Assembly (NCBI GenBank): GCA_964524645.1
Contig: CAZGEC010000002.1
Location: 93,076-157,075 of the forward strand
DNA length: 64,000 nt
Source of the DNA: an uncultured Fibrobacteraceae bacterium
Lineage (GTDB): Bacteria; Krumholzibacteriota; Krumholzibacteriia; LZORAL124-64-63
Direction of reading: 5' to 3'
Part shown: positions 22,448-48,155 of the stretch, piece by piece
How positions within the stretch are numbered: position 1 is the first letter of the stretch
How the letters are laid out: every line of letters starts with the position of its first letter
Translations under genes and position numbers: made by a program
The notes under the pieces: model-generated
Told to the model about the DNA's origin: nothing
The model's database searches: none
The model's input: the letters and a program-made list of their open reading frames with translations, nothing else

Positions 22448-23440
22448 TCAGTCGGCCAGGGCGCCGCCGCAGGAGCTGCCCGCGCCCGCGGTGCAGCCGA
22501 AGCAGTGCCGGGCCGTGCGGATGCGCCGCTGCTGGAAATGCACGGGATCGAAATCACGGACGTGCGGAACCTTCCCCGCGGGCGATTCGGCCGGGATGGC
22601 GAGCACCTGGTTGAAGTCGCAGTCGTGGATGCTCCCGTCCCAGCCGATGGAGATGGTGTTGCGGCACATCAGCCCGGCGATCGTGACGGGGTTGAAGGCG
22701 CCGAGCAGCCTCTCCAGGTAGCCCGACAGGTTGCCGCTCTCCTGGAGCCACGCCAGGAAGCGGCCGATGGGCATGTTGTTCAGGGCGATCAGGGCATCGA
22801 AGGTCACCCCGTGGTCCCTGGCCAGGGCCGCCTTCCACTCGGGCTCGAGCGCGCACTGCTTGCCGGCCAGGAAGGCGCCGGCGGGATTGCTCACCAGCGT
22901 GAGCCGGCGGCGGGGATCTCCCCGGCCGTAGCCCGCCGCGTTAAGCCGCCGCAAAGCCTCGATGGACCTTGCGTAGGCACCGTCGCCGCGCAGGGCGTCG
23001 GTGTTACGCCGGCGATGATGCGGCAGCGAGCCGACCACCTCGACCCCCCGCTCGGCCAGCCACTCCGGCAGATCGGCGAAGCGGGGCACCAGCAAGATGC
23101 TCAGGTTGCAGCGGTCGAGCACGTGTTTGCCGCGCGAGATCGCCTCGTCCACCAGGTCGCGGAAGTGCGGGTTCAGCTCCGGAGCGCCGCCGGTCAGGTC
23201 CACCGTGTGGGCCTCGGTCCGGTCGAGAGCCGTCAGGCAGTTGTCGATGGTCTCGCGGCTCATCATCTGGTCCGTGCGGTCCGGTCCGGCGTCGACGTGG
23301 CAGTGCCGGCAGGCCATGTTGCACAGCCGGCCCAGGTTCATCTGGAAGATCTCCAGGCGGGTGGCGTGCAGACCCGCCCAGCCGTGCTCCGCGAGCACGG
23401 CCTCGAAGCTGGCCGTCCCCGGCAGGGTTTCGCTCTTCAT
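22448..23440 (-). CDS. arsS: Radical SAM / Cys-rich domain protein of the ArsS (arsenosugar biosynthesis) family
   Basis: GRLCNMACRHCHV (CxxxCxxC) and the C-terminal Cys cluster CFGCTAGAGSSCGGAL. Confidence 0.8.
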   Translation of the reverse strand: MKSETLPGTASFEAVLAEHGWAGLHATRLEIFQMNLGRLCNMACRHCHVDAGPDRTDQMMSRETIDNCLTALDRTEAHTVDLTGGAPELNPHFRDLVDEAISRGKHVLDRCNLSILLVPRFADLPEWLAERGVEVVGSLPHHRRRNTDALRGDGAYARSIEALRRLNAAGYGRGDPRRRLTLVSNPAGAFLAGKQCALEPEWKAALARDHGVTFDALIALNNMPIGRFLAWLQESGNLSGYLERLLGAFNPVTIAGLMCRNTISIGWDGSIHDCDFNQVLAIPAESPAGKVPHVRDFDPVHFQQRRIRTARHCFGCTAGAGSSCGGALAD

Positions 23441-23477
23441 GGGCGCCTTCCGCTCTCGAAGGTCCGGGGACGGTGCC

Positions 23478-23810
23478 TCACATGCCGGTCTTCCGGACGT
23501 GCTCCAGCATCTGGACGCCGTGAACCAGCGAGGCCCCCCCGCGGATGGCGACGGCTACGTGCAGGGCCTCGGTCATCTGCTCCAGGTCCGCGCCGTGCTC
23601 CAGGCAGGCCTGGCTGTAGGCGTCGATGCAGTAGGGGCACTGCACGGCGTGGGCCACCGCCAGGGCGATGAGCGCCTTCTCGCGCCCGGTGAGCGCCCCC
23701 TCCGCGAAGACGCTCGCGTAGTAGGCGAAGAACTGCTCGGCCAGCTGCGGATGGCCCTCGGCGATCTCGGCGAACTTCCCCAGCTGCTCGGGATGGTAGT
23801 AACCGGCCAT
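23478..23810 (-). CDS. AhpD-like / carboxymuconolactone decarboxylase family protein (arsenosugar-associated peroxidase-like)
   Basis: AVAHAVQCPYCIDAY (CxxC in the AhpD fold). Start MAGYYHPEQ with an AAGGA RBS. Typical ArsS neighbour. Confidence 0.75.
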   Translation of the reverse strand: MAGYYHPEQLGKFAEIAEGHPQLAEQFFAYYASVFAEGALTGREKALIALAVAHAVQCPYCIDAYSQACLEHGADLEQMTEALHVAVAIRGGASLVHGVQMLEHVRKTGM

Positions 23811-27680: not shown

Positions 27681-29366
<1,686 letters not shown>

Positions 29367-29400
29367 GCGATGGCTCCCCGGCCAGGACGCTCGCTTGCGG

Positions 29401-30774
29401 CTAGCCGTGCTTGTAGATGTTGATGCCCTTGACGTTGACGAACTCGCGCAGGCCGTACTTGGACAGCTCCCGCCCAATGCCGCTCTTCTTGACCCCGCCG
29501 AAGGGCATGCGCGGATCGGACTTGACAAAGCTGTTGACGAAGAGGGTGCCGGCCTCGATCCGGCGCGCCACGCGCTCGCCCCGCGCCAGGTCACGGGTCC
29601 AGATGCTGCCGCCCAGGCCGAACTCGCTGGCGTTGGCCACCCGGATCGCCTCCTCCTCGTCCTGGACCACGATGACCGGGGCGATGGGGCCGAAGACCTC
29701 CTCCTTGACCACTGGCATGTCCGGCGTCGTGTGGCTCAGGACGGTCGGCTGCAGGAAGTAGCCCTCGCGATCCACGCGCTTCCCGCCGGTCACCACCTCG
29801 GCGCCCATGGCCACCGAGCGCGCGAGCTGGTCGAGCAGCTCGTTCAGGCCTTCCTCGTTCACGATGGCCCCGACCTGGGTGGCCTCGTCCAGGGGATCGC
29901 CCACCTTCAGCTCGCCCATCAGCTCGCCGAAGCGCTTGGTGAACGCGGGAGCCAGGCTCTCGACGACGATGAAGCGCTTGGCGGCGATGCAGCTCTGGCC
30001 CGTGCCCACCATGCGGCCCCGCATGGCGTTGTGGGCCGTGAACTCCACGTCGGCGTCCTCCAGCACGATGAACGGGTCGCTGCCGCCCAGCTCCAGCACG
30101 ACCTTCTTCAGGTTGCGGCCGGCGGCCTCGCCGATGCGCATGCCGGCGCCGGTGCTACCGGTCAGCGAGACCCCGGCGACGTGGTCGCTGGCGATCAGCT
30201 CGGCGGCCGTGGCGTGATCGGCCAGGACGGTGCGGAAGACGTCCTCCGGGAAGCCGGCCTCGCGGAAGGCATGCTCGATGGCGAAGGCGCAGGAGGTCAC
30301 GTTGCTGGCGTGCTTGAGCAAGCTGGTGTTCCCGGCGATCAGCCCCGGCACGGCGAAGCGGATGGCCTGCCAGAAGGGGTAGTTCCAGGGCATGATGGAG
30401 AAGATCACCCCCAGCGGCTCGAAGGCCACCAGGTGCCGCTCCCCATCGGCCTGGACCTTCTCCTCCTGCAGCCAGCCCGCGGCGTTCTCCGCGTAGACCT
30501 CGCTCAGCCAGGCGCACTTCTCCACCTCGCCGCGGGACTCGGTGATGGTCTTGCCCATCTCCATGGTGATGAGTTCGGCGAACCGGTCGCGATGCGCGTG
30601 CAGGACGCGCGCGAACTCCCGGAAGTAGGGCGCGCGCTCCTCTATGCTCAGCTCGCGCCACTTGCGGAAGGCGGCCCGGGAGCGCCCCGCGATCTCCAGG
30701 ACCTGGTCGCGGGACATGGTCTCCCAGGATTGGATGACCCTCGCCGTGGCCGGGTTGATGGTCTGGTACTTCAT
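29401..30774 (-). CDS. NAD(P)-dependent aldehyde dehydrogenase (succinate-semialdehyde dehydrogenase-like)
   Basis: ELGGSDP, GQSCIAAKRF (catalytic Cys) and the FGGVKKSG-type C-terminal motif. Start MKYQTINP. Confidence 0.85.
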   Translation of the reverse strand: MKYQTINPATARVIQSWETMSRDQVLEIAGRSRAAFRKWRELSIEERAPYFREFARVLHAHRDRFAELITMEMGKTITESRGEVEKCAWLSEVYAENAAGWLQEEKVQADGERHLVAFEPLGVIFSIMPWNYPFWQAIRFAVPGLIAGNTSLLKHASNVTSCAFAIEHAFREAGFPEDVFRTVLADHATAAELIASDHVAGVSLTGSTGAGMRIGEAAGRNLKKVVLELGGSDPFIVLEDADVEFTAHNAMRGRMVGTGQSCIAAKRFIVVESLAPAFTKRFGELMGELKVGDPLDEATQVGAIVNEEGLNELLDQLARSVAMGAEVVTGGKRVDREGYFLQPTVLSHTTPDMPVVKEEVFGPIAPVIVVQDEEEAIRVANASEFGLGGSIWTRDLARGERVARRIEAGTLFVNSFVKSDPRMPFGGVKKSGIGRELSKYGLREFVNVKGINIYKHG

Positions 30775-30945
30775 GCTGGCTCCTCGGGATCGGGATCCGG
30801 ATCCGGGCCCTCGCACGGCCCGCACGGCTCCCTATCTACTGGCAACCGTCCCCAGGCGCAACGCCGAACCGCCTCGCAACGGCCTCAGAAAGCGCGTCTC
30901 GGCGCCGGCCTGCCGCCCGGAGATGATCTTGCCACATCCACGTCC

Positions 30946-34417: not shown

Positions 34418-35050
34418 TCACTCCTCCTGGCTGCGGTACAGCGCCTTCACCGCGCCCCAGCTGCTGGCGATCACGGGGACGACATCGACGTTCACGCCCG
34501 CCACGGGCACGTCGTAGGAGGCCGAGGAGGGTTGGAGCGGGACAAGGGTTCCGGGCACGCCGTCGTTGGCTTGGTAGAATGCATGGATTCCATCGAAGGG
34601 ATCGATGGGGGGAGGGGGCTGGATGTACAAGCGGCCCCATTCGTCGAGGGAGTGCACGACGATGCCAATCTCGACGACGGGTATGGCGTAGGCCCACGGG
34701 ATCGGTGGTGCTGCCCCGAGAATCCAGTATGGATCACAGTTCGGAATCTGAATACCGCCCATGAGTGACCACGAGCACCAGTCATAAATCGTTCCCTCCA
34801 TGACGCCGTGGATGCCGATGCCCTGGACGCCGCTCTCGCCGCTGATGTTGATGAGCACGAGGTAGGCCATGACCGTTTGGTGTGGCTCCGTGGTGTGGAA
34901 GGTGGTGGTGAGCCCTTCCTGGTCGAAGTAGATGCCGACGATGTCCTGTTCCTCGGCCGTGGCATGGCCGGCGGGGAGTAAGACGAGGAGCGCCGTCAGG
35001 ACGACCGGCATGACGAGGACGCGCCCCTGCAGCGGGTATCTGGAGAGCAT
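34418..35050 (-). CDS. Secreted protein of the GVKxxYR-tail family, with the shared N-terminal module
   Basis: Start MLSRYPLQGRVLVMPVVLTALLVLLPAGHATA with a GGAGG RBS. N-terminal module DIVGIYFDQ...AYLVLINISGESGVQGIGIHGVMEG. The WGAVKALYR tail is followed by SQEE. Confidence 0.75.
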   Translation of the reverse strand: MLSRYPLQGRVLVMPVVLTALLVLLPAGHATAEEQDIVGIYFDQEGLTTTFHTTEPHQTVMAYLVLINISGESGVQGIGIHGVMEGTIYDWCSWSLMGGIQIPNCDPYWILGAAPPIPWAYAIPVVEIGIVVHSLDEWGRLYIQPPPPIDPFDGIHAFYQANDGVPGTLVPLQPSSASYDVPVAGVNVDVVPVIASSWGAVKALYRSQEE

Positions 35051-35281
35051 GGGAATACCTCCCCTTCGGCATGGACTGCATGATGGCCTGGATGAGAAGA
35101 GTGCGGCCGCTTTGTAGACTTGGATCTCGGCTAATAATCGTGAGCGCGCGTGTCGTTCTATTTCCAGTATGGAGAAGTTCCACTGATGTAATGCCGGAAC
35201 TGCGGGATGGTTGCGGCGAAAATGGGTCGAGTGGCGGTGGCTGAAGTGCAAGAAATGTAACAATGCGCGTGGTTGGGGCGG

Positions 35282-36103
35282 CTACAGGCCCAGAACCTTG
35301 CGCTCGTCCTCGAAGTTGCTGGGCAAGATGCGGATCAGCCAGCCCTCGCCGTAGGGGTCCTGCAGGGCGGTGGCGGGATCCTCGAGCAGCTTCTGGTTGA
35401 CCTCCAGGACCTCGCCCGAGAGGGGGGACCAGACGGTGTGGCTGCGCAGGTCGGCGGAGAAGATCTGCAGGCAGACGGCGCCCTGGGCGAGGACGTCGCC
35501 CACGTTCGGCAGGTCGATGTCGCGGACCACGCCGGCTCCCTTGACGAAGGAGGCCTCGACGCCGATCAGGACGCTGCCGTCCTTCTGCATCATCATCCAG
35601 CTGTTGTGGCCCAGGGTGCGCAGTCCGGGCCGCGCCGTGGCCTGCTGGGCGGCGCCGTCCCCGGCGGCCTGGCCGGCGGCCTCGCCGTAGGGGGTGCCCT
35701 GCTCGACCTCGGCCACGAGGTGCAGCGCCCGCTGCACGATGCCGCGCAGCTCGGCCCTGGTGAAGGGCTTGGCGATGTAGTCGAAGGCCCCGAGCTTCAT
35801 GGCCTGCATGGCGGTGCTGATGGTGGCGTAGCCGGTCACCATGACCACCGGGATGGCGGGCCAGCGCTCCTTGATGCGGCGGGTGAACTCCAGGCCGTCC
35901 ATGTCCGGCATCATCAGGTCGGTCAGCACCACCTGGATGCCGCCCTGCTCCAGGCGGGTCAGCCCCTCGCGGGCGTTCAGGGCCGTCTCGATCTGCAGCG
36001 GCTCCTTGCGCAGCAGCTTGCGCGCGCTGTCCAGGACGATCTGCTCGTCGTCCACGAAGAGGATCGACAGCGGCTCCACACCTCGGTCCTGCTTCTTGCT
36101 CAT
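35282..36103 (-). CDS. Response regulator: CheY-like receiver fused to a glycine-cleavage-H-like (lipoyl-fold) domain that lacks the lipoyl lysine
   Basis: REC domain DDE..D..K (FVDDEQ...TDLMMPDMDG...KP). The C-terminus aligns with GcvH (HNSW..GV...VG..LPNVG...G.....SPLSGEVLEVN..L...P..LQDPYGEGWL), with K replaced by D at the lipoylation position. Confidence 0.8.
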   Translation of the reverse strand: MSKKQDRGVEPLSILFVDDEQIVLDSARKLLRKEPLQIETALNAREGLTRLEQGGIQVVLTDLMMPDMDGLEFTRRIKERWPAIPVVMVTGYATISTAMQAMKLGAFDYIAKPFTRAELRGIVQRALHLVAEVEQGTPYGEAAGQAAGDGAAQQATARPGLRTLGHNSWMMMQKDGSVLIGVEASFVKGAGVVRDIDLPNVGDVLAQGAVCLQIFSADLRSHTVWSPLSGEVLEVNQKLLEDPATALQDPYGEGWLIRILPSNFEDERKVLGL

Positions 36104-36149: not shown

Positions 36150-37964
36150 TCAGTAGTGGGCCACCGGCAGCACGACGCGGAAGAGGGCGCCGCCCTGCGG
36201 GTTGCTCTCCACCTCGATATGACCTCCGTGCCGCTCGACGATGCCCCAGCTCACCGCCAGGCCGAGCCCGCTGGTGGCCTTGGTGGAGTAGAACGGTTCG
36301 AAGATGCGCTCGCGCAGCGGCTCCGGCACGCCCGGCCCGGTGTCCAGCACGCTCACCCAGCACTCCTCGGCGCTTTCCTGCCGCCCGCTGGCGATGGTGA
36401 TGGCTCCGTGCCCGTCCATGGCGTCGTTGGCGTTGATGATCAGGTTGAGCAGGACCTGCTGGAGCTGCCGCGCGTCGGCGGTCACAGTGAGCGCCTCCGC
36501 GGCCAGCTGCTTGGTCAGCGCGATGTCCCGGAAGCGGGGTAGCTTCTCCACCAGGGCGAGCGAGCGCGCCACCACCTCGTTCAGGTCCACGGTCTGGAAG
36601 ACCGGATCCTGCTGGCGGGAGAAGTCGAGCAGGTTGCGCACGATCGCGCGGCAGCGGAGGGTCTCGCGGACGATGACCTCGTAGTCCGCGCGGCGGGCGT
36701 CGTCGGGCGCGGCGTCGTCGCGCAGGTCCTCGGCGTAGGCCAGCACGCCGGTCAGCGGGTTGTTGATCTCGTGCGCGACGCCCGCGGCCAGCTTGCCCAC
36801 GGCGGCCAGCTTGGCCGACTGCAGGAGCTGCTTCTGCAGCTCGTGCTCCTGGGTGACGTCGCGGGCGATGGTGGCGACCCCCTCCACGTGGCCCTCGAAG
36901 TCGAAGAGGGGGAAGCGCACCGTCTGCAGCACGTACTCCTTGCCGCCGATGATGTAGCGCTCGCTGAAGGTGCGGTGCTCCCGCTGCTCCATCACCTCGC
37001 GGTCGTGGCCGGTGATCGTCCTGGCGATCTCGGGCTCGTAGATCTCCTCCGCCGTGCGGCCGATGAACTCCAGGGGATCGCGGCTGAACAGCGCCGCCGA
37101 GGCGGGATTGTAGACCAGGTAGCGCCCTTGCTTGTCCTTGATGGAGATGATGTCGTGGGCGGACTCGATGAACTGGCGGAAGCGGCGCTCCGACTGCTCC
37201 ACCTCGCGCTGCAGCAGGATGCGCTTGGTCACCGGATGGTGCGTCTCCACGACGTTCACCAGGTGGCCGGCGGCGTCGTACTGGGGGGAGGCGGTCACCT
37301 CCCAGTAGCCGTGCGTCGGTTGGTGGCGCTCCACGATGCTGGCGACGGGATGGCCCTGCGCCACCGCCTCCTCGAAGGGGCAGCCCTCGCGGCCGACCCG
37401 CTGCGGATCCAGGCTCGCGTTGCAGAAGACATCGCGGCAGCCGTGGCCGATGGCCTCGCTCAGGGGGACGCCGCAAGCGTCGCTGAAGCGGGCGTTGGCC
37501 TGCAGGATCTGCCGGTCCTGGTCGAGCACGATCACGATGTCGGGCAGGCTGTCGAGGATGTGCTGGGCGCGGGCGCGGTCGGATTCGAGCTTCTGCTCCA
37601 GCTCCGCCCGCGCGATCAGCTCCTCGCGCAGGGACTGCTCCATGGCCATGACGTCCCAGAAGACGCGGGCCGAGGCGTGGTCGATGACGCGCACCCCCAG
37701 CGGGAGCCGGTGGTAGATGTCCGCCAGGATGCCGTCGTCGCCCGTCAGCTCGACGACCAGCTCGATCCCGGGCAGCTCGATCGCCTCGATGTAGTCGGCG
37801 AGCGTCTGCAGGCCCGCCTCTCGCGCGTAGACGAGGCCCGGCGCCTCGGGATCGGGATCGGCGACGCTGACCACCTGCATCTGCAGCTCGCGCAGGTGAC
37901 CGGCCTGCAGGAGCTTCAGGATGGCCCGGCAACCCCGGCCGCCGCCGACGATCACGGTCCTCAT
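36150..37964 (-). CDS. Sensor histidine kinase: N-terminal Rossmann-like domain, PAS domains, HisKA and HATPase
   Basis: MRTVIVGGGRGCRAIL. PAS repeats. H-box HEINNPLTG. N/G boxes. RBS GGAGGA. The start overlaps the upstream gene's stop (ATGA). Confidence 0.85.
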   Translation of the reverse strand: MRTVIVGGGRGCRAILKLLQAGHLRELQMQVVSVADPDPEAPGLVYAREAGLQTLADYIEAIELPGIELVVELTGDDGILADIYHRLPLGVRVIDHASARVFWDVMAMEQSLREELIARAELEQKLESDRARAQHILDSLPDIVIVLDQDRQILQANARFSDACGVPLSEAIGHGCRDVFCNASLDPQRVGREGCPFEEAVAQGHPVASIVERHQPTHGYWEVTASPQYDAAGHLVNVVETHHPVTKRILLQREVEQSERRFRQFIESAHDIISIKDKQGRYLVYNPASAALFSRDPLEFIGRTAEEIYEPEIARTITGHDREVMEQREHRTFSERYIIGGKEYVLQTVRFPLFDFEGHVEGVATIARDVTQEHELQKQLLQSAKLAAVGKLAAGVAHEINNPLTGVLAYAEDLRDDAAPDDARRADYEVIVRETLRCRAIVRNLLDFSRQQDPVFQTVDLNEVVARSLALVEKLPRFRDIALTKQLAAEALTVTADARQLQQVLLNLIINANDAMDGHGAITIASGRQESAEECWVSVLDTGPGVPEPLRERIFEPFYSTKATSGLGLAVSWGIVERHGGHIEVESNPQGGALFRVVLPVAHY

Positions 37965-39007
37965 GGCGCGTCCTCCGGTGGATCCTGCGCGGTGTCCGCG
38001 GCGCCGGGCGGCCTCGCGGCCGCCCCCGCGGGGAAGCTGTCCAGCGCGCCGCCGAGATCCGCGGCCACCTGGCTCATGCGCTCGTAGTAGTCCGTCGTCG
38101 CGTGCGAGAAGCGCATCAGCACGTCGTTGAGCGCCCGGGGCAGATAGGGGAACAGCTTCCGCAGGTTGATGATGCGGTACTCGTAGAAGGCCGAGGCGTC
38201 GTCCGCGGTCAGGCTGTTCTTCACCGCGTCGGGGAAGGCGTCCGAGCGCAGGACCTGGTGGAAGGATTGTATGCCCTTGCCGACGATGTAGGCGAGGACA
38301 TTTCCGATGCTCCAGATGTCGAAATCGGAGAAGTCCTGCTTCAGGTCGAAGTCGATCCAGCGGAAGCGGTCCGTGCGCCGGTCGATGAGGAGGTGATCGT
38401 TGCGGATGTCGCCGTGGCAGAGCTTGTGGTCGTGCAGGATCTGGATGGCCTCGATGCTCTCGATGAGCCGGTGCAGGAGGTTCTGCATCTCGCCGAAGCA
38501 ATAGGCCTCGTGCGGCTCCTGCCAGTTTTGGATGTGCTGGAAGATGCTGGGGCCGGGGATGACGTCGAGCACGCGGACGTCGTTGCCGGCGCTGTCGAAG
38601 ACGGTCTCGCCCTGCATGAAGCGCATGTCGCCGTACACCAGGGCCAGGACCTCGCTCTCCTTGGCGGGGCTGCGGTAGCAGCGGATGCGCAGGGGCCCGA
38701 TGCGGACCACGAACTCCTCGTGGAAGACGGTCTTGACGATCGCGTCGGCTCCGCTGCCCAGGTCGACGGTGCGCAGGACCCAGTACTTGGGCTGATCGCT
38801 GATGCCGAAGCGCGACTCGTAGGCGTGCCCCATCACGGCGAGCAGCCGGCCCCCCAGGTCCAGGACATGCCCGCGGTGCATGTCCATGGACTCGGTGGTG
38901 TCGGTGAGAACCTGCACGCCCCGTCGCGGGGTCCACCCGGTCAGCTCCTCGATGCGCCGGGCCAGCCCCTCCAGGTCGTAGCGTGTCTCGCCGGGTGCGT
39001 CGGGCAT
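37961..39007 (-). CDS. Atypical protein kinase-like / phosphotransferase-fold protein
   Basis: HGDIRNDHLLID catalytic-loop-like motif and DFD. Translationally coupled to the HK gene. Confidence 0.6.
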   Translation of the reverse strand: MPDAPGETRYDLEGLARRIEELTGWTPRRGVQVLTDTTESMDMHRGHVLDLGGRLLAVMGHAYESRFGISDQPKYWVLRTVDLGSGADAIVKTVFHEEFVVRIGPLRIRCYRSPAKESEVLALVYGDMRFMQGETVFDSAGNDVRVLDVIPGPSIFQHIQNWQEPHEAYCFGEMQNLLHRLIESIEAIQILHDHKLCHGDIRNDHLLIDRRTDRFRWIDFDLKQDFSDFDIWSIGNVLAYIVGKGIQSFHQVLRSDAFPDAVKNSLTADDASAFYEYRIINLRKLFPYLPRALNDVLMRFSHATTDYYERMSQVAADLGGALDSFPAGAAARPPGAADTAQDPPEDAP

Positions 39008-39165: not shown

Positions 39166-39771
39166 TCAGGTTCCGGAGCGCAGCCGCGGCCAGTAGCGGG
39201 GCAAGCCGGTTGCGTAGCGGTCCCAGGCCGCACCGTACTCGGTCCGCAGCCGGCGTTCCTCGAGCCGGGTGCCCACGTAGGTGTACACGAGGAAGACGCC
39301 CCGCCAGACGAGGTTCACGTCCGTCAGCGGGAGGCAGAAGACGAAGAACAGGTAGCTCCCGGCGTAGTAGGGATGGCGCATGTGGGCGAGGATGCCGCGC
39401 CGGGACAGCGGCGGGGGAGGCGTCGCCCTTCCTTGCCACCGGTCGCGGAGCTGGCGCAGCCCGAGGAAGTAGGCGTTGTCATAGACGCGGGCGCCCGCCA
39501 GGAACAGCAAGGCGGAGGCCCCTAGGCCCGCCCAGCGCACGATCTGCCAGGCGCCGTGCCAGGTGAACCAGCTCAGGGCGGGCAGGCTCCGCCACCAGAG
39601 GAGCAACCCGGCCAGGCTCAGGGTGCTGACCGCGACGTAGGCCAGCCGGGAGAAAGCCTGCGCGAGGCCGGAGGGACGCAGCAGCCGCCCCGGCCGCAGC
39701 AGGGTGATGAACCAGCTGTGCAGGAAGCACCAGGCGGCGGCCGCCAGGGCCACCCAGAGCAGGTCAAGCAT
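39166..39771 (-). CDS. Isoprenylcysteine carboxyl methyltransferase (ICMT/PEMT) family membrane methyltransferase
   Basis: RHPYYAG motif and four or five TM helices. Confidence 0.7.
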   Translation of the reverse strand: MLDLLWVALAAAAWCFLHSWFITLLRPGRLLRPSGLAQAFSRLAYVAVSTLSLAGLLLWWRSLPALSWFTWHGAWQIVRWAGLGASALLFLAGARVYDNAYFLGLRQLRDRWQGRATPPPPLSRRGILAHMRHPYYAGSYLFFVFCLPLTDVNLVWRGVFLVYTYVGTRLEERRLRTEYGAAWDRYATGLPRYWPRLRSGT

Positions 39772-40351
39772 CGTCCTCGCCGCTCGGATCGCACACCCCC
39801 GGGGGCAGGATGACCTCGCCGCGGACGCAGCGGGCGATCTCGAGCAGGGACACCGGGGCCTGGCGGTAGCAGAGATGGGAGCGGCAATGCGCCCGGCAGT
39901 CGCTGGCCCCGAAGCCCCGACAGGGATGGACGGCCCCCAGGGTGGCGACCACCAGCCGGTTGACAGCGCACTCCTCGGCCTGCTCGCGCGCCGGGACGCT
40001 CTGGGCGCCGACCGTCAGGGCCCCCGGCTCGATCTCGTCGTCCGGATCGGCGGCCGGGACGACCACGGCCCCGATGGTGTGACAGGCCGGATGGGTGGTC
40101 AGGTAGTCGATGTGCCAGCGGAGCTTCTTCTCGGGGCGGAAGTGCCGCTGCAGCCGCGCCTGCAGGTTGCGCAGGGCGCTGCCGGTGTAGACGTACCAGC
40201 CGGCCGGGAAGGTGAAGCTGCCGAGCGCGCCGATCTGCAGCTGCGCGGCGGCGGTCAGGCGCAGGAGCAGGGCGTACTGGCCGCTCTCCCACAGCCCGTC
40301 GGTCCGGGGCAGGGCTTTTCGCAGTGGCCGGTTGGATCTTTCGCTTCTCAT
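39764..40351 (-). CDS. DUF123 (GIY-YIG-like) domain protein
   Basis: YALLLRL....IGALG...F.AGWYVYTGSA....HWHIDYL-like motifs. Confidence 0.55.
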   Translation of the reverse strand: MRSERSNRPLRKALPRTDGLWESGQYALLLRLTAAAQLQIGALGSFTFPAGWYVYTGSALRNLQARLQRHFRPEKKLRWHIDYLTTHPACHTIGAVVVPAADPDDEIEPGALTVGAQSVPAREQAEECAVNRLVVATLGAVHPCRGFGASDCRAHCRSHLCYRQAPVSLLEIARCVRGEVILPPGVCDPSGEDDA

Positions 40352-44459: not shown

Positions 44460-45842
44460 TCAGTCCCTGGCCAGGCTGACGGGCCGGGTGGTGGCCTGGG
44501 GCACCGTCACGGTCAGATGATGCAGCCAGGCCAGGAGCGAGACGGCGGAGGCCAACAGCAGGGCCCCGGTGGCCTGATGGGCCGTCGTCAGGATCAGGTC
44601 AGCGACCAGGGGAGCCTCGCCGGCGCGCTCGGCTCCCACGGCCACCATGGCGCCCAGGCCGAGCCCCACCTGCACGCCGGTCAGGACCAGCAGCAGGCGG
44701 CCGAAGCCGGGCAGCGGCGCGAGTTCGCGGTGCAGGAGCACGACCAGCACGCCCAGCGAGATCGCCAGGGCCACCACCACGGCGGCCATGGTGACGTGAA
44801 CGAGCAGGCCGCTGCTTTCGTGGCGCAGGACGGCCCCCAGCACCAGCTGCACCAGCAGGCCGGCCGCCAGCAGGCGCGCGAGGCTACGCTCCAGGCCGGC
44901 CGAGGTGGCGACCAGGGGCTCGGCGGTGAGCCGCCAGCGTCGCGAGGCGAAGACGGCCAGCAGGGTCATCACGGCGAAGAAGACCTGCCCGGTGATTCCG
45001 TGGATCACCGCCAGCAGGAGGTTGGGTGCGGTCTCGGCCGGCGAGGCGCTCATGGTGAAGCGGCCGGTGACCCGGAGCCCGCCCAGGATGCCCTGCAGCA
45101 CCACCAGCACGAGCGCCGCCACGGCCGTGCGCTTCAGCCAGCGGCGCGGGTCCGTCCGCAGCAGGTGGATCACCAGAGCGAGGGTGGTCAGGCCCACCAG
45201 CGAGCCCAGGAGGCGGTGGGCGTGCTCGTAGTAGATGCCGCCGGTCATGCGCGCCAGCGGGTAGAGGAACATGTTGTAGCCGTAAGAGTTGGGCCAGTCC
45301 ACCACGGCCAGGCCCGCCTCGTGGCTGGTGACGATGCCACCGGCGACCAGGAGCAGGAAGGTGGCGGCCGCCGCCACGCCCGCGAACGCCGCGGTCCAGT
45401 CCGGCGGCGAATCGTCCCTCCCCAGCACGCCCTCCGGCGCCCGCCCGCGCCGCAGTGTCTTGCCCACCAGCGCGCCGGCGGCTCCGAGCAGAGTGCTCGC
45501 CAGCAAGGCGCCGGGCAGCCACAAGAGCGTCGAGGGCACGAGGTGGTTGGGGCGATCGCCCGACAGCAGGCTGCCGAGAACGAGCAGGTTGACGAGGCCG
45601 GCCAGAAGGCCCACCGCCATCCCGCCACGGATGCCGCGCGTGGTCCAGGAACCCGCCAGCAGGCCGCCGCCGAACAGGCTGGCGAGCAGCAGGACGAGGA
45701 CCGACCAGGCCGGAGCGTTCAGCCCGGGGTAACGACAGACATAGCCGATGGCCCACATCGTCACCGTGGTTCCGAATCCTAGGGCGAGGATGTCCGCTCC
45801 GTGGACGCGAGGAGATTGCGGGGATACCGACTCTGGAGGCAT
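44460..45842 (-). CDS. ctaA: Heme A synthase (CtaA/COX15 family) with a roughly 130-residue N-terminal membrane extension
   Basis: VTSHEAGLAVVDWPNSYG. Conserved His in TM helices. RBS AAGGAG. Confidence 0.7.
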   Translation of the reverse strand: MPPESVSPQSPRVHGADILALGFGTTVTMWAIGYVCRYPGLNAPAWSVLVLLLASLFGGGLLAGSWTTRGIRGGMAVGLLAGLVNLLVLGSLLSGDRPNHLVPSTLLWLPGALLASTLLGAAGALVGKTLRRGRAPEGVLGRDDSPPDWTAAFAGVAAAATFLLLVAGGIVTSHEAGLAVVDWPNSYGYNMFLYPLARMTGGIYYEHAHRLLGSLVGLTTLALVIHLLRTDPRRWLKRTAVAALVLVVLQGILGGLRVTGRFTMSASPAETAPNLLLAVIHGITGQVFFAVMTLLAVFASRRWRLTAEPLVATSAGLERSLARLLAAGLLVQLVLGAVLRHESSGLLVHVTMAAVVVALAISLGVLVVLLHRELAPLPGFGRLLLVLTGVQVGLGLGAMVAVGAERAGEAPLVADLILTTAHQATGALLLASAVSLLAWLHHLTVTVPQATTRPVSLARD

Positions 45843-46071
45843 GCAGGGACTCCTTGCGAGGTGGCCTGCGCCGGGATGAGGCGGCGGACCGTCGTGGACT
45901 TGGTTATCTTGCCGGACCGTGCGGCGAGCCTCACGTTGCGGCCACGGAGGCAGGGGGCGGAACCGCGGACCCGGAGCACGGGCCCCATCCCGACGGTGGA
46001 TCGGGACCGGACTTCCCGATATGATAGAAGCGAAGGCGGCCTGACCGCTAACGACAAGATCGCGAGGGCTC

Positions 46072-47061
46072 ATGGACGTCCGCGCCCGCATCGACAGCTA
46101 CCTCGAGCTGGCCAAGGCTCGCCTGACCTCCCTGGTGCTCTTGACGACCCTCGTCGGCTACCTGCTGCCCGGTCGCGGCGACCACGGATCGGCCCACCTC
46201 CTGTGGACCCTGCTGGGCACCGCCCTGGCGGCCGGCGGGGCCAACGCGCTCAACCAGTGGCTGGAGGTGGAGCAGGACGCCCTCATGGAGCGGACCCGGG
46301 GACGCCCCCTGCCCTCCGGGCGGCTGACGCGCCGGCATGCCCTGCTCTGGGGTCTCGGTACCGCGACGGCCGGCGTGGCGCTGCTGCTGATCCTGGTGGG
46401 TCGGGTGCCGGCGGCCCTGGCCGCCAGCGTGGTCCTGCTCTACACGCTGGCCTACACGCCGCTGAAGCGACGGAGCACCCTCTGCACCCTGGTCGGGGCG
46501 ATCTGCGGCGCCATCCCGCCGATGATCGGCTGGTCCGCCGCCACAGGCGGTCTGGAGCTGGGGGCCTGGCTGCTGGCCGCCACCCTCTTCGTCTGGCAGA
46601 TGCCCCACTTCTTCGCCCTGGCCTGGATCTACCGCCGCGACTACGCCCGCGCCGGGTATCGCATGCTGCCGGTCGTGGATCCCGCGGGGCGCGCCACCTT
46701 CCCGTCGCTCCTGCTGTTCAGCCTGGCGCTGCTGCCGCTGGGCCTGACCGTCTTCCTGATGGGGCTGGCGGGGCCGATCTATGCCGCCGGATCGCTGCTG
46801 GCGGGCCTCTTCTGGTCGTGGTTCGGCCTCCAGCTCTACCGCGAGCACAGCGATCGGCGCGCCCGCAAGGTCTTCCTGGGCAGCCTGCTCTACCTGCCCC
46901 TGGTGCTGGGTCTGATGGTGGCCGACCGCGGGCCCCTGGTGGGGATGTCGTCAGGCTACGATCTGGCCCAAGGCCCGATCTCTCCGGTGTCGGCGGGGCC
47001 TGCGGCGGCAACGCCGCTTCCCGCGCGGTCCACGGCGGATCCGGCGGGCCTGGCGCCATGA
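46072..47061 (+). CDS. ctaB: Protoheme IX farnesyltransferase (heme O synthase)
   Basis: UbiA-fold motifs NQWLEVEQDALMERTRGRPLPSG. Nine TM helices. Confidence 0.9.
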   Translation: MDVRARIDSYLELAKARLTSLVLLTTLVGYLLPGRGDHGSAHLLWTLLGTALAAGGANALNQWLEVEQDALMERTRGRPLPSGRLTRRHALLWGLGTATAGVALLLILVGRVPAALAASVVLLYTLAYTPLKRRSTLCTLVGAICGAIPPMIGWSAATGGLELGAWLLAATLFVWQMPHFFALAWIYRRDYARAGYRMLPVVDPAGRATFPSLLLFSLALLPLGLTVFLMGLAGPIYAAGSLLAGLFWSWFGLQLYREHSDRRARKVFLGSLLYLPLVLGLMVADRGPLVGMSSGYDLAQGPISPVSAGPAAATPLPARSTADPAGLAP

Positions 47062-48155
47062 AGCTGCCGCCCGCAGGAGCTGCGCCCGGGACTCCGGCCG
47101 GCCGCCTGCGCAGCGTGGCCTGGATCCTGGGCCTGGCCCTGCTGATCAGCGCGGCCATGTTCGCGGTCCAGATCCTGCGGGCCCTGCGGGGTCCGCACGC
47201 GGTGCTGGTGGGCAACGGCCGGGACGTCGCCAGCTACGGTTTCGACCTGGACACCTGCCTCGTGCCGCGCGAGGTCCTCGTGGCGGCCGGCCTGCCCAAG
47301 GATGGTCTGGCCTCTCTCGATCGTCCCCCGCTGATGAGTGCGGCGGCCGTGGATTCACTCAACGCCGCCGAGCGCGGCAAGTACCTCGTCGCCGAAGACC
47401 GGGTGATCGGGCTGGAGCTGGGCGGGCTCGCCCGGGCCTACCCGCTGCGCGTTATGAACTGGCACGAGATCGCCAACGACACCCTCGGCGGGCGGCCCAT
47501 CGCGGTGACCTACAGCCCCTTGGCCGACGCCTGTGTCGCCTTCGACCGGCGGGTCGACGGCCGGGAGCTGGAGTTCGGGGTGAGCGGTCTGCTCCTGGAC
47601 TCGAACCTGCTGATGTACGATCGCCGCCCCGGCGGCGAGGGGGAGAGCCTCTGGAGCCAGCTCCAGGCCCGGGCGGTGACCGGGCCGGCCGCGGCGGCGG
47701 CACGCACCCTGGCCGTCCTGCCCGTCGCGGTGATCACCTGGCGGGAGTGGCGCGCTCTGCATCCCGGGACGACGGTGCCCTTTCCGGCGCCCGAGCGGCG
47801 GGACAGCTACAAGCGCGATCCCTACGGCAGCTACGGCGGCTCGGACCTGCTGCGCTTTCCCGTGCAGCCGGCCATCCCGTCGGGGGATCTGCGCAACAAG
47901 GATCACGTCGTCGCCGTGCCGCGGCCGGGCGGCTGGCTCACCATCGCCCTGAAGGACCTCGTGGTGAGGGCCGGCCCGGACGGCGAGCTGCTGCTGCCGC
48001 TGCCGGAACGGGGCCTGCGTATCCGCGTGAGCGAGTCGCCGCCCACCGTGCTTGTCCGGGATGCGGAGGACGGGCGCCCGCAGCCCTGCATCCTCAGCTT
48101 CTGGTTCGCCTGGCACGCCCTGCATCCGGACGACCGCCTGCTGGATCTGCTCTGA
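47058..48155 (+). CDS. DUF3179 family protein
   Basis: N-terminal TM helix. DUF3179-like core. Start overlaps the ctaB stop (ATGA). Confidence 0.7.
   Translation: MKLPPAGAAPGTPAGRLRSVAWILGLALLISAAMFAVQILRALRGPHAVLVGNGRDVASYGFDLDTCLVPREVLVAAGLPKDGLASLDRPPLMSAAAVDSLNAAERGKYLVAEDRVIGLELGGLARAYPLRVMNWHEIANDTLGGRPIAVTYSPLADACVAFDRRVDGRELEFGVSGLLLDSNLLMYDRRPGGEGESLWSQLQARAVTGPAAAAARTLAVLPVAVITWREWRALHPGTTVPFPAPERRDSYKRDPYGSYGGSDLLRFPVQPAIPSGDLRNKDHVVAVPRPGGWLTIALKDLVVRAGPDGELLLPLPERGLRIRVSESPPTVLVRDAEDGRPQPCILSFWFAWHALHPDDRLLDLL

What the first reader, a model, noticed from the sequence alone, without database searches (positions are those of the whole stretch)
35282..36103. Response regulator whose output domain is a GcvH-like lipoyl-fold domain lacking the lipoylatable lysine
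The C-terminal 110 residues align convincingly with the glycine-cleavage H-protein, including the PVSGEV.EVN and PYGEGWL motifs. The lipoyl-lysine position reads D instead of K (FSADLRS against ESVKAAS).

A REC-GcvH-like architecture suggests a phospho-controlled protein-protein interaction module instead of a DNA-binding output. I do not know of a described signalling role for GcvH-like domains.

The partner kinase has an unusual N-terminal Rossmann-like domain (VIVGGGRGCRAIL) ahead of its PAS domains. It is translationally coupled to a protein-kinase-like gene.
Basis: seen in the sequence. Interest (0 to 1): 0.6.

Follow-up and report, generated by a model that had tools for sequence, protein, structure and literature searches.

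The report
Response regulator with lipoate-free H-protein domain
This gene encodes a bacterial signalling switch whose output end is a copy of the glycine-cleavage H-protein that has lost its cofactor-carrying lysine; it belongs to a widespread, unstudied three-gene module (odd protein kinase, sensor kinase, this regulator) found so far only in uncultured bacteria.

Summary
Window 35282-36103 (-) encodes a 273-aa protein with an intact receiver domain (Pfam E=8e-31) and a C-terminal GcvH domain (Pfam E=2.8e-17, above threshold). The AlphaFold model of that domain matches E. coli H-protein at 1.5 Å. The lipoyl-lysine column is Asp in 118 of 121 family members.

All 120 listed homologues have this architecture. 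About 34 species-level genomes carry it, every one a MAG (Zixibacteria, Ignavibacteria, Planctomycetota, KSB1 and others). None has a name beyond "response regulator", and nine literature searches found no paper on it.

The regulator sits in a conserved cassette: atypical protein-kinase-like gene, then histidine kinase, then regulator. The kinase-like stop overlaps the histidine kinase start (ATGA). The histidine kinase N-terminus is a confident Rossmann-like fold. It is closest to the NAD domain of acetaldehyde dehydrogenase, not to Rex or TrkA. This domain has no Pfam model, yet 771 protein clusters carry it.

The function is inferred, not shown. My reading is a non-transcriptional, phospho-switched protein-docking output, most plausibly partnered with the co-encoded kinase-like protein. 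I class it as a new variant of a known kind and score interest at about 0.6.

The parts
35282..36103 (-). Response regulator gene (273 aa): REC, flexible linker, GcvH-like domain
   Evidence: ORF. Pfam. AF2 model.
35735..36064 (-). Receiver (REC) domain, residues 14-123. It is NtrC/AtoC-like, and D18, D19, D62, T90 and K112 are all present.
   Evidence: Pfam E=8e-31. Nearest NCBIfam and PDB receivers are NtrC1, AtoC and ZraR. The five residues are conserved in 119 to 121 of 121 members.
35918..35920 (-). Codon of D62, the predicted phospho-acceptor aspartate (LTDLMMP)
   Evidence: Read from the sequence. D in 120 of 121 members.
35624..35698 (-). Ala/Gly/Gln-rich linker of variable length, residues 136-160
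   Evidence: pLDDT below 50 for residues 136-161. Length and sequence vary in the family alignment.
35285..35623 (-). GcvH-like (single hybrid motif) domain, residues 161-273. It ends in a conserved LGL at the C-terminus.
   Evidence: Pfam GCV_H E=2.8e-17. PDB profile hits are H-proteins only. Foldseek match to 3a8j_E has rmsd 1.5 Å. The C-terminus is LG[LF] in 107 of 121 members.
35438..35467 (-). Hairpin that carries lipoyl-lysine in true H-proteins. Here it reads QIFSADLRSH (residues 213-222), with D218 in the lysine column and H222 conserved.
   Evidence: Alignments. D218 in 118 of 121, H222 in 121 of 121, Q207 in 121 of 121. H222 is Q or E in some more distant loci.
36150..37964 (-). Cognate cytoplasmic histidine kinase (604 aa): Rossmann-like N-domain, long helix, PAS, PAS, HisKA, HATPase
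   Evidence: Pfam. AtoS/ZraS-like by NCBIfam. Conserved directly upstream of the RR in all loci examined.
37680..37964 (-). HK N-terminal Rossmann-like domain (residues 1-95; GGGRGC loop, D36, ELTG, DH motifs), followed by helix 96-129
   Evidence: AF2 pLDDT 93.3 with five beta-alpha units. Foldseek best matches are DmpF, PYCR1 and Gfo/Idh/MocA NAD domains. PDB profile hit 1nvm_B E=0.0034. 771 cluster representatives carry the domain. No Pfam model matches it.
36840..37565 (-). Two PAS domains of the HK (residues about 134-375)
   Evidence: Pfam PAS_4, PAS and PAS_8. PAS2 is much better conserved than PAS1, and the PAS1 cysteines are not conserved.
36159..36797 (-). HisKA and HATPase_c catalytic core (residues 390-602), with H-box His398
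   Evidence: Pfam. The H-box, G1 and G2 boxes are invariant in 23 orthologues.
37961..39007 (-). Atypical protein-kinase-like gene (348 aa), the first gene of the cassette
   Evidence: Pfam Pkinase E=4e-5, below the gathering cut-off. Family profile against PDB eukaryotic-type kinases gives E about 6e-7. 850 homologues, named 'hypothetical' or 'serine/threonine protein kinase'. About 50% identical across phyla.
38393..38416 (-). Catalytic-loop equivalent HGDIRNDH (residues 198-205) of the kinase-like protein. DFD (residues 219-221, coordinates 38345-38353) replaces DFG.
   Evidence: HMMER alignment to HRDLKPEN and DFG of solved kinases. These residues are at least 97% conserved in 121 members.
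37961..37964 (-). ATGA overlap: the stop of the kinase-like gene lies inside the start of the HK gene
   Evidence: Sequence read. The same abutting or overlapping arrangement occurs in L014, L016, L017, L019 and L027.

Best explanation
**What it is.** This is the response regulator of a cytoplasmic two-component pair derived from NtrB/NtrC (AtoS/AtoC-like) ancestors. The sigma-54 ATPase and DNA-binding output has been replaced by a lipoate-free H-protein-fold domain on a flexible tether of about 25 residues.

**How I think it works.**
1. The histidine kinase senses an intracellular cue through its Rossmann-like (possibly NAD(P)(H)-binding) domain and two PAS domains.
2. It autophosphorylates on H398 and transfers the phosphate to D62 of the regulator.
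3. Phosphorylation of the receiver changes the availability of the GcvH-like domain, which acts as a protein-docking module rather than a cofactor carrier or a DNA binder.
4. Its functional face is the former lipoyl hairpin, rebuilt around Q207, D218 and H222. The conserved C-terminal LGL may contribute.
5. The most likely partner is the atypical Ser/Thr-kinase-like protein encoded first in the same operon. That would give a partner-switch-like link between His-Asp and Ser/Thr-type signalling.

**Shown here:** domain identities, loss of the lysine, intact catalytic and phospho-acceptor residues, and cassette conservation.

**Inferred:** the signal, phosphotransfer, docking, and the identity of the partner.
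For: **Domains and fold.** establish REC plus a GcvH fold.

**No lipoylation site.** The lysine column is D in 118 of 121 members, and 120 of 121 have no K in the hairpin.

**A functional site at the old hairpin.** It is among the most conserved stretches of the domain. It carries family-specific invariants absent from true GcvH: Q207, D218, H222, plus F186 and P261. That argues for a functional site there, not decay.

**A competent phospho-switch.** The REC has all five phospho-switch residues, and the HK has invariant H-box, G1 and G2 boxes.

**No other output.** No DNA-binding or enzymatic domain is present.

**Cassette conservation.**
- The HK-RR pair is conserved in every locus examined.
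- The kinase-like gene lies directly upstream in 14 of 21 GTDB loci that have the Rossmann-type HK. It is also there in the window and its close clade L086, L088 and L089.
- It often overlaps the HK start.
- It is the best conserved of the three proteins, at about 50% identity across phyla.
- No other neighbour is conserved.

**The kinase-like protein looks active.** It keeps the catalytic Lys, Glu and Asp and the DFG-Asp equivalents.

**Parallel from a relative.** In locus L024, REC-GcvH-like genes sit beside a REC-STAS gene, and STAS is a classical partner-switching domain.
Against: - No binding, phosphotransfer or ligand data exist.
- The structure tools could not model complexes.
- The kinase-like gene is absent from 5 of 21 loci (L007, L015, L029, L037, L038). 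It is 4.4 kb away in L001 and reduced to a remnant in L002/L003, yet the HK and RR stay intact. The RR therefore cannot depend on it absolutely.
- The D218/H222 hairpin signature tracks the Rossmann-type HK rather than the kinase-like gene. Loci L023, L028 and L032 keep the kinase-like gene at 51-55% identity but have a TM-HAMP HK and a different hairpin, GAITNSNMRVF.
- H222 is Q or E in Ignavibacteria and Kapabacteria loci.
- The Rossmann-like domain's similarity to NAD-binding domains is weak, with E about 1e-3.
Confidence: 0.5

Rival explanations
1. **H-protein mimic or decoy.** The lysine-less GcvH-like domain occupies the H-protein or lipoyl-domain docking site of an enzyme. Candidates are a T-, P- or L-protein, a lipoate ligase or transferase, or another flavoprotein disulfide reductase or Hdr-like complex. 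Under phospho-control it throttles that enzyme, analogous to sigma-factor mimicry by PhyR.
For: - The fold and most structural motifs of H-protein are retained.
- In more distant REC-GcvH-like loci, the neighbours are exactly such enzymes. L022 has REC fused to a dihydrolipoamide-dehydrogenase-like flavoprotein. L024 has a REC-GcvH-like-HdrC-like fusion next to an HdrB-like CCG protein. L025, L026, L033 and L032 have NrfC/NrfD modules.
- In the window's own clade, an SSADH-like gene and a TPP-enzyme gene lie downstream.
Against: - In the core family (21 or more loci) no gcvT, gcvP, lpd, lplA or hdr gene is conserved nearby. Only the HK and the kinase-like gene are.
- The hairpin is chemically remodelled (E-S-V-K becomes F-S-x-D), not just K-less.
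- The downstream metabolic genes are clade-level synteny only.
Confidence: 0.17
2. **Intramolecular or HK-directed regulator.** The GcvH-like domain does not address an external target. It docks back on its own REC domain or on the Rossmann-like domain of the histidine kinase. It would set kinase/phosphatase balance as feedback, or mediate RR oligomerisation. The real output would then be the kinase-like protein or phosphate flux.
For: - The family-specific hairpin signature (D218, H222) co-occurs with the Rossmann-type HK. It is replaced when the HK is a TM-HAMP type.
- A tethered domain on a flexible linker is typical of autoinhibitory outputs.
Against: - The co-occurrence is confounded by phylogeny, since there are few independent lineages.
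- The Rossmann-like domain occurs in hundreds of other signalling proteins without a GcvH-like partner.
- No interface could be computed.
Confidence: 0.15
3. **Carrier of a different modification or ligand.** The rebuilt hairpin (S216, D218, S221, H222, with Q207) is a site for a metal or small ligand. Alternatively it takes a covalent mark, for example Ser/Thr phosphorylation by the co-encoded kinase-like protein. The swinging-arm position would then be reused as a regulated switch.
For: - In this fold the hairpin tip is the canonical site of post-translational modification.
- Near-invariant polar residues cluster there.
- A kinase-like enzyme with intact catalytic residues is co-encoded.
- By the abstract listed, the GcvH paralogue GcvH-L is itself a substrate of regulatory ADP-ribosylation (PMC4518038).
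Against: - H222 is replaced by Q or E in some lineages, and S221 and S216 vary. No single modifiable residue other than D218 is universal.
- The kinase-like gene is missing in some loci.
- There is no chemical evidence.
Confidence: 0.12
4. **Vestigial domain.** The C-terminal domain is an evolutionary remnant with no specific function. The protein works as a single-domain receiver, acting as a phosphate sink or a CheY-like connector.
For: The defining lysine is lost and no output activity can be assigned.
Against: - The domain is conserved at 48-84% identity across phyla, with 18 invariant columns that include family-specific ones.
- Its length is constant and its C-terminus is conserved.
- It is predicted with high confidence.
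- All of this points to purifying selection on a folded, functional domain.
Confidence: 0.04

Closest known systems
Glycine cleavage system H-protein (GcvH; Pfam PF01597; e.g. E. coli 3a7l/3a8j, T. maritima 2ka7)
   Same: Same barrel-sandwich 'single hybrid motif' fold (rmsd 1.5 Å, 28% identity). It shares the HEW, LP.vG, P.SGe..evN and DPYgeGW motifs.
   Different: - No lipoyl-lysine; Asp takes its place.
- The hairpin is rebuilt and has a one-residue insertion.
- The C-terminal helix is truncated to LGL.
- The domain is fused behind a receiver domain.
- It scores below NCBIfam's GcvH cut-off (63 against 117 bits).
- It is not next to gcvT or gcvP.
Other GcvH paralogues with non-canonical roles: LbpA of the sulfur-oxidising sHdr system (PMC6067878) and GcvH-L of the SirTM/macrodomain operon (PMC4518038; PDB 5a35)
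   Same: These are H-protein-fold proteins recruited outside glycine cleavage. They are associated with Hdr-like complexes or with regulatory modification. Distant REC-GcvH-like loci also sit beside HdrB/C-like genes.
   Different: By the abstracts listed, LbpA and GcvH-L are still lipoylated stand-alone proteins. The present domain cannot be lipoylated and is an RR output. 5a35 matches the family profile only weakly (E=0.004).
Response regulators whose output is a degenerate or mimic protein-binding domain: RssB (REC plus inactive PP2C-like adaptor), PhyR (sigma-like domain plus REC), stand-alone CheY (from general knowledge, not tested here)
   Same: A phospho-switch controls a non-catalytic, non-DNA-binding domain that works by docking to a partner. 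The output domain descends from an enzyme or cofactor protein that lost its chemistry.
   Different: The output fold is different, the partner is unknown, and there is no experimental evidence.
AtoS/AtoC, ZraS/ZraR and NtrB/NtrC-type two-component pairs
   Same: The REC domain's best matches are NtrC1, AtoC and ZraR receivers. The HK core's best matches are AtoS and ZraS (E=3e-82).
   Different: There is no sigma-54 AAA+ domain and no Fis-type HTH. The HK is soluble and carries an extra Rossmann-like N-domain. All scores fall far below the equivalog cut-offs.
NAD(H)-sensing Rossmann modules (Rex, TrkA/KTN) and NAD-binding domains of DmpF-type acetaldehyde dehydrogenase, PYCR1 and Gfo/Idh/MocA (for the HK N-domain)
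   Same: A five-stranded beta-alpha Rossmann-like fold. It has a Gly-rich first loop (GGGxGC) and an acidic residue (D36) at the end of strand 2.
   Different: It is only about 95 residues long, with no catalytic or dimerisation domain. The best matches are DmpF, PYCR1 and GART at E about 1e-3, and Rex and TrkA are not among the top 50. Nucleotide binding is untested.
Hanks-type (eukaryotic-like) Ser/Thr kinases, and STAS/anti-sigma-kinase partner switching (for the co-encoded kinase-like protein)
   Same: The kinase fold is detectable (E about 6e-7). It has equivalents of the beta3 Lys, the alphaC Glu, the catalytic Asp and the DFG Asp. It is encoded with a small docking-domain protein, as in partner-switching modules.
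   Different: - The catalytic loop is HGDIRNDH, with His where the metal-binding Asn sits.
- DFD replaces DFG.
- There is no canonical Gly-rich loop.
- The Pfam score is below the cut-off for the window protein.
- There is no NCBIfam family.
- Anti-sigma kinases have the GHKL fold, not the protein-kinase fold.

Membership tests
Response regulator (CheY-like receiver superfamily) | Receiver domain recognised above the curated threshold, with the (beta/alpha)5 fold | tested here: met
   Pfam Response_reg 106.9 bits against 30.2. In the AF2 model the REC domain (residues 12-135) has block-mean pLDDT mostly 91-98, with a dip to 75-84 around residues 91-110. Foldseek matches to many REC structures have rmsd 1.0-1.6 Å.
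Response regulator (CheY-like receiver superfamily) | Acidic pocket, phospho-acceptor Asp, and switch Thr/Ser and Lys | tested here: met
   D18, D19, D62, T90 and K112 are present in 119 to 121 of 121 family members.
Response regulator (CheY-like receiver superfamily) | Adjacent cognate histidine kinase with an intact H-box and ATP-binding boxes | tested here: met
   The HK stop is 46 nt upstream of the RR start. The HK-RR pair is conserved in all loci. The H-box and G boxes are invariant.
Response regulator (CheY-like receiver superfamily) | Phosphotransfer from the kinase to the aspartate | not testable with these tools
   This needs a biochemical assay.
Glycine cleavage H-protein (functional GcvH) | GcvH fold and Pfam GCV_H match | tested here: met
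   Pfam 63.2 bits against 22.2. PDB profile E=1.7e-17. Foldseek TM 0.77, rmsd 1.5 Å.
Glycine cleavage H-protein (functional GcvH) | Lipoylatable lysine at the hairpin tip (E-S-V-K motif) | tested here: not met
   The column is D218 in the window protein and D in 118 of 121 members. There is no K in the hairpin in 120 of 121.
Glycine cleavage H-protein (functional GcvH) | Score above the NCBIfam GcvH model cut-off | tested here: not met
   NF002270 GcvH scores 63.1 bits against a cut-off of 117.
Glycine cleavage H-protein (functional GcvH) | Genomic association with gcvT, gcvP or lipoylation genes | tested here: not met
   No such domains appear among the 31 window ORFs scanned. Only the HK and the kinase-like gene are conserved neighbours in 23 loci.
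NtrC-family sigma-54-dependent response regulators | Central AAA+ sigma-54 interaction domain and C-terminal Fis-type HTH | tested here: not met
   Only the receiver part aligns, to model positions 1-125 of about 450. There is no Sigma54_activat or HTH_8 hit.
Rex/TrkA-type NAD(H)-sensing Rossmann domains (HK N-terminal domain) | Rossmann beta-alpha-beta fold with a Gly-rich loop and an acidic residue after strand 2 | tested here: met
   AF2 pLDDT 93.3 with strands 2-6, 30-35, 53-55, 69-72 and 92-94. G7, G9 and G11 are conserved in both alignments, and D36 is invariant among the orthologous kinases.
Rex/TrkA-type NAD(H)-sensing Rossmann domains (HK N-terminal domain) | Closest sequence or structure relatives are Rex or TrkA/KTN domains | tested here: not met
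   The top Foldseek and HMM matches are DmpF-type acetaldehyde dehydrogenase, PYCR1, Gfo/Idh/MocA and GAR transformylase, all at E about 1e-3. No Rex or TrkA is in the top 50.
Rex/TrkA-type NAD(H)-sensing Rossmann domains (HK N-terminal domain) | Binds NAD(H) | not testable with these tools
   This needs ITC, fluorescence or co-crystallisation.
Hanks-type Ser/Thr protein kinases (co-encoded kinase-like protein) | Pfam Pkinase above the gathering score | tested here: inconclusive
   The window protein scores 23.5 bits against 31.7. Most homologues carry a precomputed PF00069 hit. The family profile against PDB kinases gives E=6e-7.
Hanks-type Ser/Thr protein kinases (co-encoded kinase-like protein) | Catalytic Lys, Glu, HRD-Asp, catalytic-loop Asn and DFG-Asp | tested here: inconclusive
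   K92, E117, D200 and D219 are invariant. The Asn position is His205 (HGDIRNDH), DFG is DFD, and the Gly-rich loop is replaced by YExRFG.

The most novel reading that the evidence does not exclude
The three genes form a previously unrecognised signalling module, widespread in uncultured FCB, PVC and related phyla. In it, a cofactor-carrier fold (H-protein) has been exapted as a phospho-regulated partner-switching domain. That domain would couple a nucleotide- or redox-sensing histidine kinase to an atypical Ser/Thr-type kinase. This would be a new class of response-regulator output and a new hard-wired junction between His-Asp and Ser/Thr phosphorylation. More broadly, lysine-less GcvH-like domains fused to REC may be general docking adaptors for redox enzymes, given the Lpd-like, HdrBC-like and NrfCD-like neighbours in related loci.
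Probability: 0.3. Interest if true: 0.75.

Novelty: new variant of a known kind. Interest (0 to 1): 0.6.

Why it matters
Response-regulator outputs are mostly DNA-binding or a short list of enzymatic domains. Protein-docking outputs such as CheY, RssB and PhyR have each revealed a new regulatory logic. This family adds an H-protein fold stripped of its cofactor site.

- It is conserved with its kinase across at least six candidate phyla that have no cultured representatives, so it is likely a core regulatory circuit there.
- It defines two further unannotated pieces. One is a Rossmann-like N-terminal sensor domain found in 771 protein clusters, in histidine kinases and sigma-54 activators. The other is an atypical protein-kinase family of about 850 members.
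- All three can be expressed in vitro. Binding, phosphotransfer and NAD(H) sensing are therefore directly testable without culturing the organisms.

Tried and rejected
**Hypotheses dropped**
- **PAS1 iron-sulfur or metal sensor (CRDVFC...GCP).** Rejected. Those cysteines are conserved in only 17-74% of 23 orthologues.
- **H222 as a phospho-histidine relay site.** Weakened. It is Q or E in the Ignavibacteria, Kapabacteria and related loci L013, L014, L015, L018, L020 and L037.
- **Anti-phage defence system.** Rejected. PADLOC gives only weak generic REC and kinase-fold hits.
- **Conserved metabolic target gene next to the cassette.** Rejected. All-against-all clustering of neighbours in 23 loci finds only the HK/RR and the kinase-like gene.
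- **LGL C-terminus tracks presence of the kinase-like gene.** Only suggestive: 12 of 15 loci with the gene against 1 of 4 without. The comparison is confounded by phylogeny, so I did not use it.

**Searches that found nothing**
- Rfam scan of the window: no RNA families.
- Sigma-70 promoter and intrinsic terminator scans: no sites, which is uninformative in this high-GC genome.
- Literature: nine searches or look-ups found no paper on REC-GcvH.

- The word-indexed homologue search with the HK N-domain returned only 2 hits. The exhaustive representative search was needed instead.
- Galperin's 2006 and 2010 censuses are not in the library.
- The organism could not be named. The closest homologues are unnamed metagenome contigs.
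Full report

The ORF at 35282-36103 on the minus strand encodes 273 residues. Pfam finds a receiver domain at residues 14-123 (E=8e-31). It also finds a GCV_H domain at 166-269 (E=2.8e-17, 63.2 bits against a gathering score of 22.2).

I built a profile from the C-terminal 115 residues of 23 family members. In the PDB it hits only glycine-cleavage H-proteins at strong E-values (2ka7 at 1.7e-17, then 1zko, 3tzu, 1onl, 3a8i, 1dxm, 3klr). Everything else scores at E of 0.002 or weaker.

An AlphaFold2 model built on a 31-sequence alignment has mean pLDDT 82.5. Both domains are confident and the linker (residues 136-161) is disordered. Foldseek against the PDB returns receiver domains for the N-terminal half. 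For the C-terminal half it returns E. coli, Thermus, bovine and Thermotoga H-proteins. The match to 3a8j_E has TM 0.77 normalised to the target, rmsd 1.5 Å, 107 columns and 28% identity.

**2. The missing lysine**

MAFFT with E. coli and Thermus GcvH and HMMER against T. maritima GcvH agree. Both put the lipoyl-lysine of E-S-V-K opposite D218 in F-S-A-D-L-R-S-H, with a one-residue insertion just after it.

In the query plus 120 homologues, the counts are:
- The lysine column is Asp in 118 of 121.
- There is no Lys anywhere in residues 212-226 in 120 of 121.
- H222 and Q207 are present in 121 of 121.
- The protein ends in LG[LF] in 107 of 121.

Most other invariant residues are the structural motifs shared with true GcvH (W169, G181, G191, P199, G202, G208, P227, G230, N236, D249-P-Y, G254-W255). 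The family-specific invariants are F186, Q207, D218, H222 and P261. The former business end of the H-protein is thus one of the best-conserved parts of the domain, but its chemistry has changed. That pattern suggests a re-purposed functional site, not a decaying one.

**3. How common is it?**

All 120 best hits in a 5.8-billion-protein collection carry both Pfam domains and are 248-299 residues long. The one exception is a 186-aa fragment. Source names are only "response regulator" or IMG's composite [quoted passage not shown].

It still returned about 34 full-length loci, all of them MAGs: Zixibacteria, Ignavibacteriales, Kapabacteria, Phycisphaerales and other Planctomycetota, KSB1, Abyssobacteria, Opitutae and delta-proteobacterial bins. 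The window's own clade (69-96% identity) is known only from unnamed metagenome contigs. NCBIfam has no model for the architecture, and the GcvH model scores 63 bits against a 117-bit cut-off.

**4. The cassette**

Directly upstream lies a 604-aa soluble histidine kinase at 36150-37964 (-). Its stop is 46 nt from the RR start. It consists of:
- an unassigned N-terminal region of about 130 residues;
- two PAS domains;
- HisKA and HATPase_c.

Its core is most similar to AtoS and ZraS, and the RR receiver is most similar to NtrC1, AtoC and ZraR receivers. The H-box and the G1 and G2 boxes are invariant in 23 orthologues.

Upstream of the kinase is a 348-aa gene at 37961-39007 (-). Its TGA stop lies inside the kinase's ATG, giving ATGA.

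BLAST of the window proteins against all ORFs of the fetched loci gives the following:
- The kinase with this N-terminal domain is present in 22 loci.
- The 348-aa gene abuts it in 14 of 21 GTDB loci, often overlapping the HK start.
- It is 4.4 kb away in L001.
- It is reduced to a 53-residue remnant in L002/L003.
- It is absent in L007, L015, L029, L037 and L038.

The triad is also intact in the window's close relatives L086, L088 and L089. Clustering all neighbouring ORFs of 23 loci finds no other conserved gene. The upstream intergenic gap of 158 nt, with a GAGGGAAG motif before the first ATG, fits a self-contained three-gene operon.

**5. The kinase-like protein**

The window protein matches Pfam Pkinase only weakly (E=4e-5, below threshold), and no NCBIfam family matches. 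A 15-sequence family profile matches solved eukaryotic-type kinases at E of about 6e-7. In that alignment HGDIRNDH lies on HRDLKPEN and WIDFDL lies on DFG.

K92, E117, D200 and D219 are invariant. The catalytic-loop Asn position is His205, DFG is DFD, and the glycine-rich loop reads YExRFG. About 850 homologues exist, all 312-389 residues long and from the same uncultured phyla. They are named "hypothetical protein" or "serine/threonine protein kinase". At about 50% identity across phyla it is the most conserved of the three proteins. I read it as a probably active, atypical kinase. A pseudokinase role is not excluded.

**6. The histidine kinase N-terminal domain**

A profile of 18 orthologues weakly matches the NAD-binding domain of acylating acetaldehyde dehydrogenase DmpF (1nvm_B, E=0.0034, covering residues 1-101). 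It also weakly matches Pfam NAD_binding_3 and GFO_IDH_MocA.

An exhaustive HMMER search of 1.84 billion cluster representatives finds 771 proteins at E of 1e-3 or better, and 263 at 1e-10 or better. The domain is nearly always N-terminal, and it sometimes occurs in two or three tandem copies. Sampled members are PAS histidine kinases, hybrid kinases and a sigma-54 activator, and none has a Pfam assignment for this region.

The AF2 model has pLDDT 93.3. It shows five beta-alpha units followed by a 34-residue helix leading into PAS1. Foldseek's best PDB matches are DmpF-type dehydrogenases (TM 0.56-0.60 normalised to the query, rmsd 2.5-2.7 Å), PYCR1, Gfo/Idh/MocA enzymes and GAR transformylase. 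All score at E of about 1e-3, and neither Rex nor TrkA is in the top 50.

Conserved residues are a Gly-rich first loop (G7, G9, G11, C12), D36 after strand 2, E72-L-T-G75 and D95-H96. So "Rossmann-like, plausibly nucleotide-binding" is supported. "Rex/TrkA-type" is not.

**7. The wider superfamily**

More distant REC-GcvH-like proteins (33-45% identity in the C-domain) also lack the lysine but have other hairpins. Their neighbours are informative:
- **L022:** the next gene is REC fused to a dihydrolipoamide-dehydrogenase-like flavoprotein.
- **L024:** REC-sigma54, two REC-GcvH-like genes, a REC-STAS gene, a REC-GcvH-like-HdrC-like fusion and an HdrB-like CCG protein.
- **L025, L026, L033:** a membrane-anchored REC-GcvH-like protein, followed by NrfC-like and NrfD(-cytochrome c7) genes.
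- **L023, L028, L032:** NrfC-like, NrfD, the same kinase-like gene (51-55% identity), a TM-HAMP kinase without the Rossmann-like domain, and a REC-GcvH-like protein with hairpin GAITNSNMRVF.

Two points follow. Lysine-less GcvH-like domains behind receivers are a recurrent theme next to redox modules. And the D218/H222 signature tracks the Rossmann-type kinase rather than the kinase-like gene.

**8. Mechanism**

Shown:
- An intact phospho-switch: D18, D19, D62, T90 and K112.
- A competent cognate kinase.
- A folded, conserved, lysine-less H-protein domain on a flexible tether.
- No DNA-binding or catalytic output.
- A conserved operon partner of kinase fold.

Inferred: phosphorylation of D62 changes the exposure or oligomeric presentation of the GcvH-like domain, which docks to a protein partner through the rebuilt hairpin. 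My preferred partner is the co-encoded kinase-like protein, in a partner-switch-like arrangement. I put about 0.5 on the docking-output model overall and about 0.3-0.35 on that specific partner.

The main rivals are:
- an H-protein decoy acting on lipoyl- or H-protein-binding enzymes. The L022 and L024 neighbours support it, but the core family has no conserved neighbour of that kind;
- feedback onto the kinase's Rossmann-like domain or onto the REC. The hairpin/HK co-variation supports it, but that co-variation is confounded by phylogeny;
- a new modification or ligand site at the hairpin;
- a vestigial domain, which the strong conservation contradicts.

**9. Relation to known systems**

The protein is a member of the response-regulator superfamily by every sequence criterion tested. 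It is a structural member of the GcvH fold and Pfam family. It fails the defining functional feature of H-proteins, the lipoyl-lysine. It also fails NCBI's family cut-off and the gcv gene context, so it should not be annotated as GcvH. It is not an NtrC-family activator, because it has no AAA+ domain and no HTH.

Functionally it most resembles regulators with degenerate protein-binding outputs (RssB, PhyR). That is an analogy from general knowledge, not a tested relationship.

**10. Novelty and limits**

Nine full-text searches or look-ups found no description of REC-GcvH proteins, of this kinase-like family, or of the Rossmann-like sensor domain. The library lacks most subscription-journal papers, including the 2006 and 2010 response-regulator censuses. 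The architecture may therefore be listed somewhere without functional study. It is certainly visible in domain databases, as the IMG names show.

Noticed in passing
window 37680-37964 (-); proteins P0245-P0394: The HK N-terminal Rossmann-like domain is a widespread sensor-type module that matched no Pfam-A model here. 771 cluster representatives carry it. It sits at the N-terminus of PAS histidine kinases, hybrid kinases and a sigma-54 activator (P0297). P0245 and P0246 have up to three tandem copies.
   Followed up: yes
L022 7001-11253 (Planctomycetota MAG CAZXNM010000004.1): A REC-GcvH-like gene is followed directly by REC fused to a dihydrolipoamide-dehydrogenase-like flavoprotein (Pyr_redox_2 plus Pyr_redox_dim), then by a third REC protein. 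This is an 'H-like plus L-like' pair, both placed behind receiver domains.
   Followed up: partly
L024 3576-12379 (delta-proteobacterial MAG CP070770.1): An array of REC fusions lies downstream of one HK: REC-sigma54, REC-GcvH-like (twice), REC-STAS and REC-GcvH-like-HdrC-like (4Fe-4S). An HdrB-like CCG protein follows. All the GcvH-like domains lack the lysine.
   Followed up: partly
L025 7803-10699; L026 3149-6896; L032 2197-4207; L023, L028: In KSB1, Opitutae and Abyssobacteria bins, REC-GcvH-like genes sit beside NrfC-like 4Fe-4S and NrfD (one fused to cytochrome c7) membrane redox modules. In L023, L028 and L032 the same kinase-like gene lies between NrfD and a TM-HAMP kinase.
   Followed up: partly
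L002/L003 5880-6161: Between DUF123 and the HK there is only a 53-residue remnant of the kinase-like gene (62% identical to residues 203-255). This looks like recent decay of the first cassette gene while the HK and RR stay intact.
   Followed up: partly
window 27681-30825 (-): An acetolactate-synthase-like TPP enzyme (NCBIfam PRK08322, above cut-off) overlaps a succinate-semialdehyde-dehydrogenase-like Aldedh. The same pair lies downstream of the RR in relative L089, and the Aldedh alone is seen in L086. From memory, this pairing resembles the lipoate-independent 2-oxoglutarate decarboxylase/SSADH bypass of cyanobacteria. I did not test that.
   Followed up: partly
window 44460-63506: A respiratory cluster: COX15/CtaA-like, UbiA-type heme O synthase, cytochrome oxidase subunit I, and subunit II fused to cytochrome c. 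It also holds an NrfD-family membrane protein and a 1280-aa 4Fe-4S protein, resembling alternative complex III. UbiA and COX15 also lie upstream of the cassette in L086.
   Followed up: no
window 34418-35263 (-): The gene just downstream of the RR encodes a 281-aa protein with a signal-peptide-like N-terminus and no Pfam match. It ends in ...SWGAVKALYRSQEE, which looks like a C-terminal sorting-type motif. It is not conserved next to the cassette in other loci.
   Followed up: no
window 39764-40351 (-) and L002 5133-5876: A DUF123 (GIY-YIG-like) gene lies just upstream of the cassette, both in the window and in L002/L003 (42% identity). The 201-aa protein between it and the kinase-like gene (39166-39771) has no Pfam match.
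   Followed up: no
window 10943-13904 (+): A radical SAM gene is followed by a Memo-AMMECR1 fusion, the gene set known as the AmmeMemoRadiSam system. Further radical SAM genes lie at 7974-9335 (B12-binding) and 22448-23554 (DUF3641).
   Followed up: no
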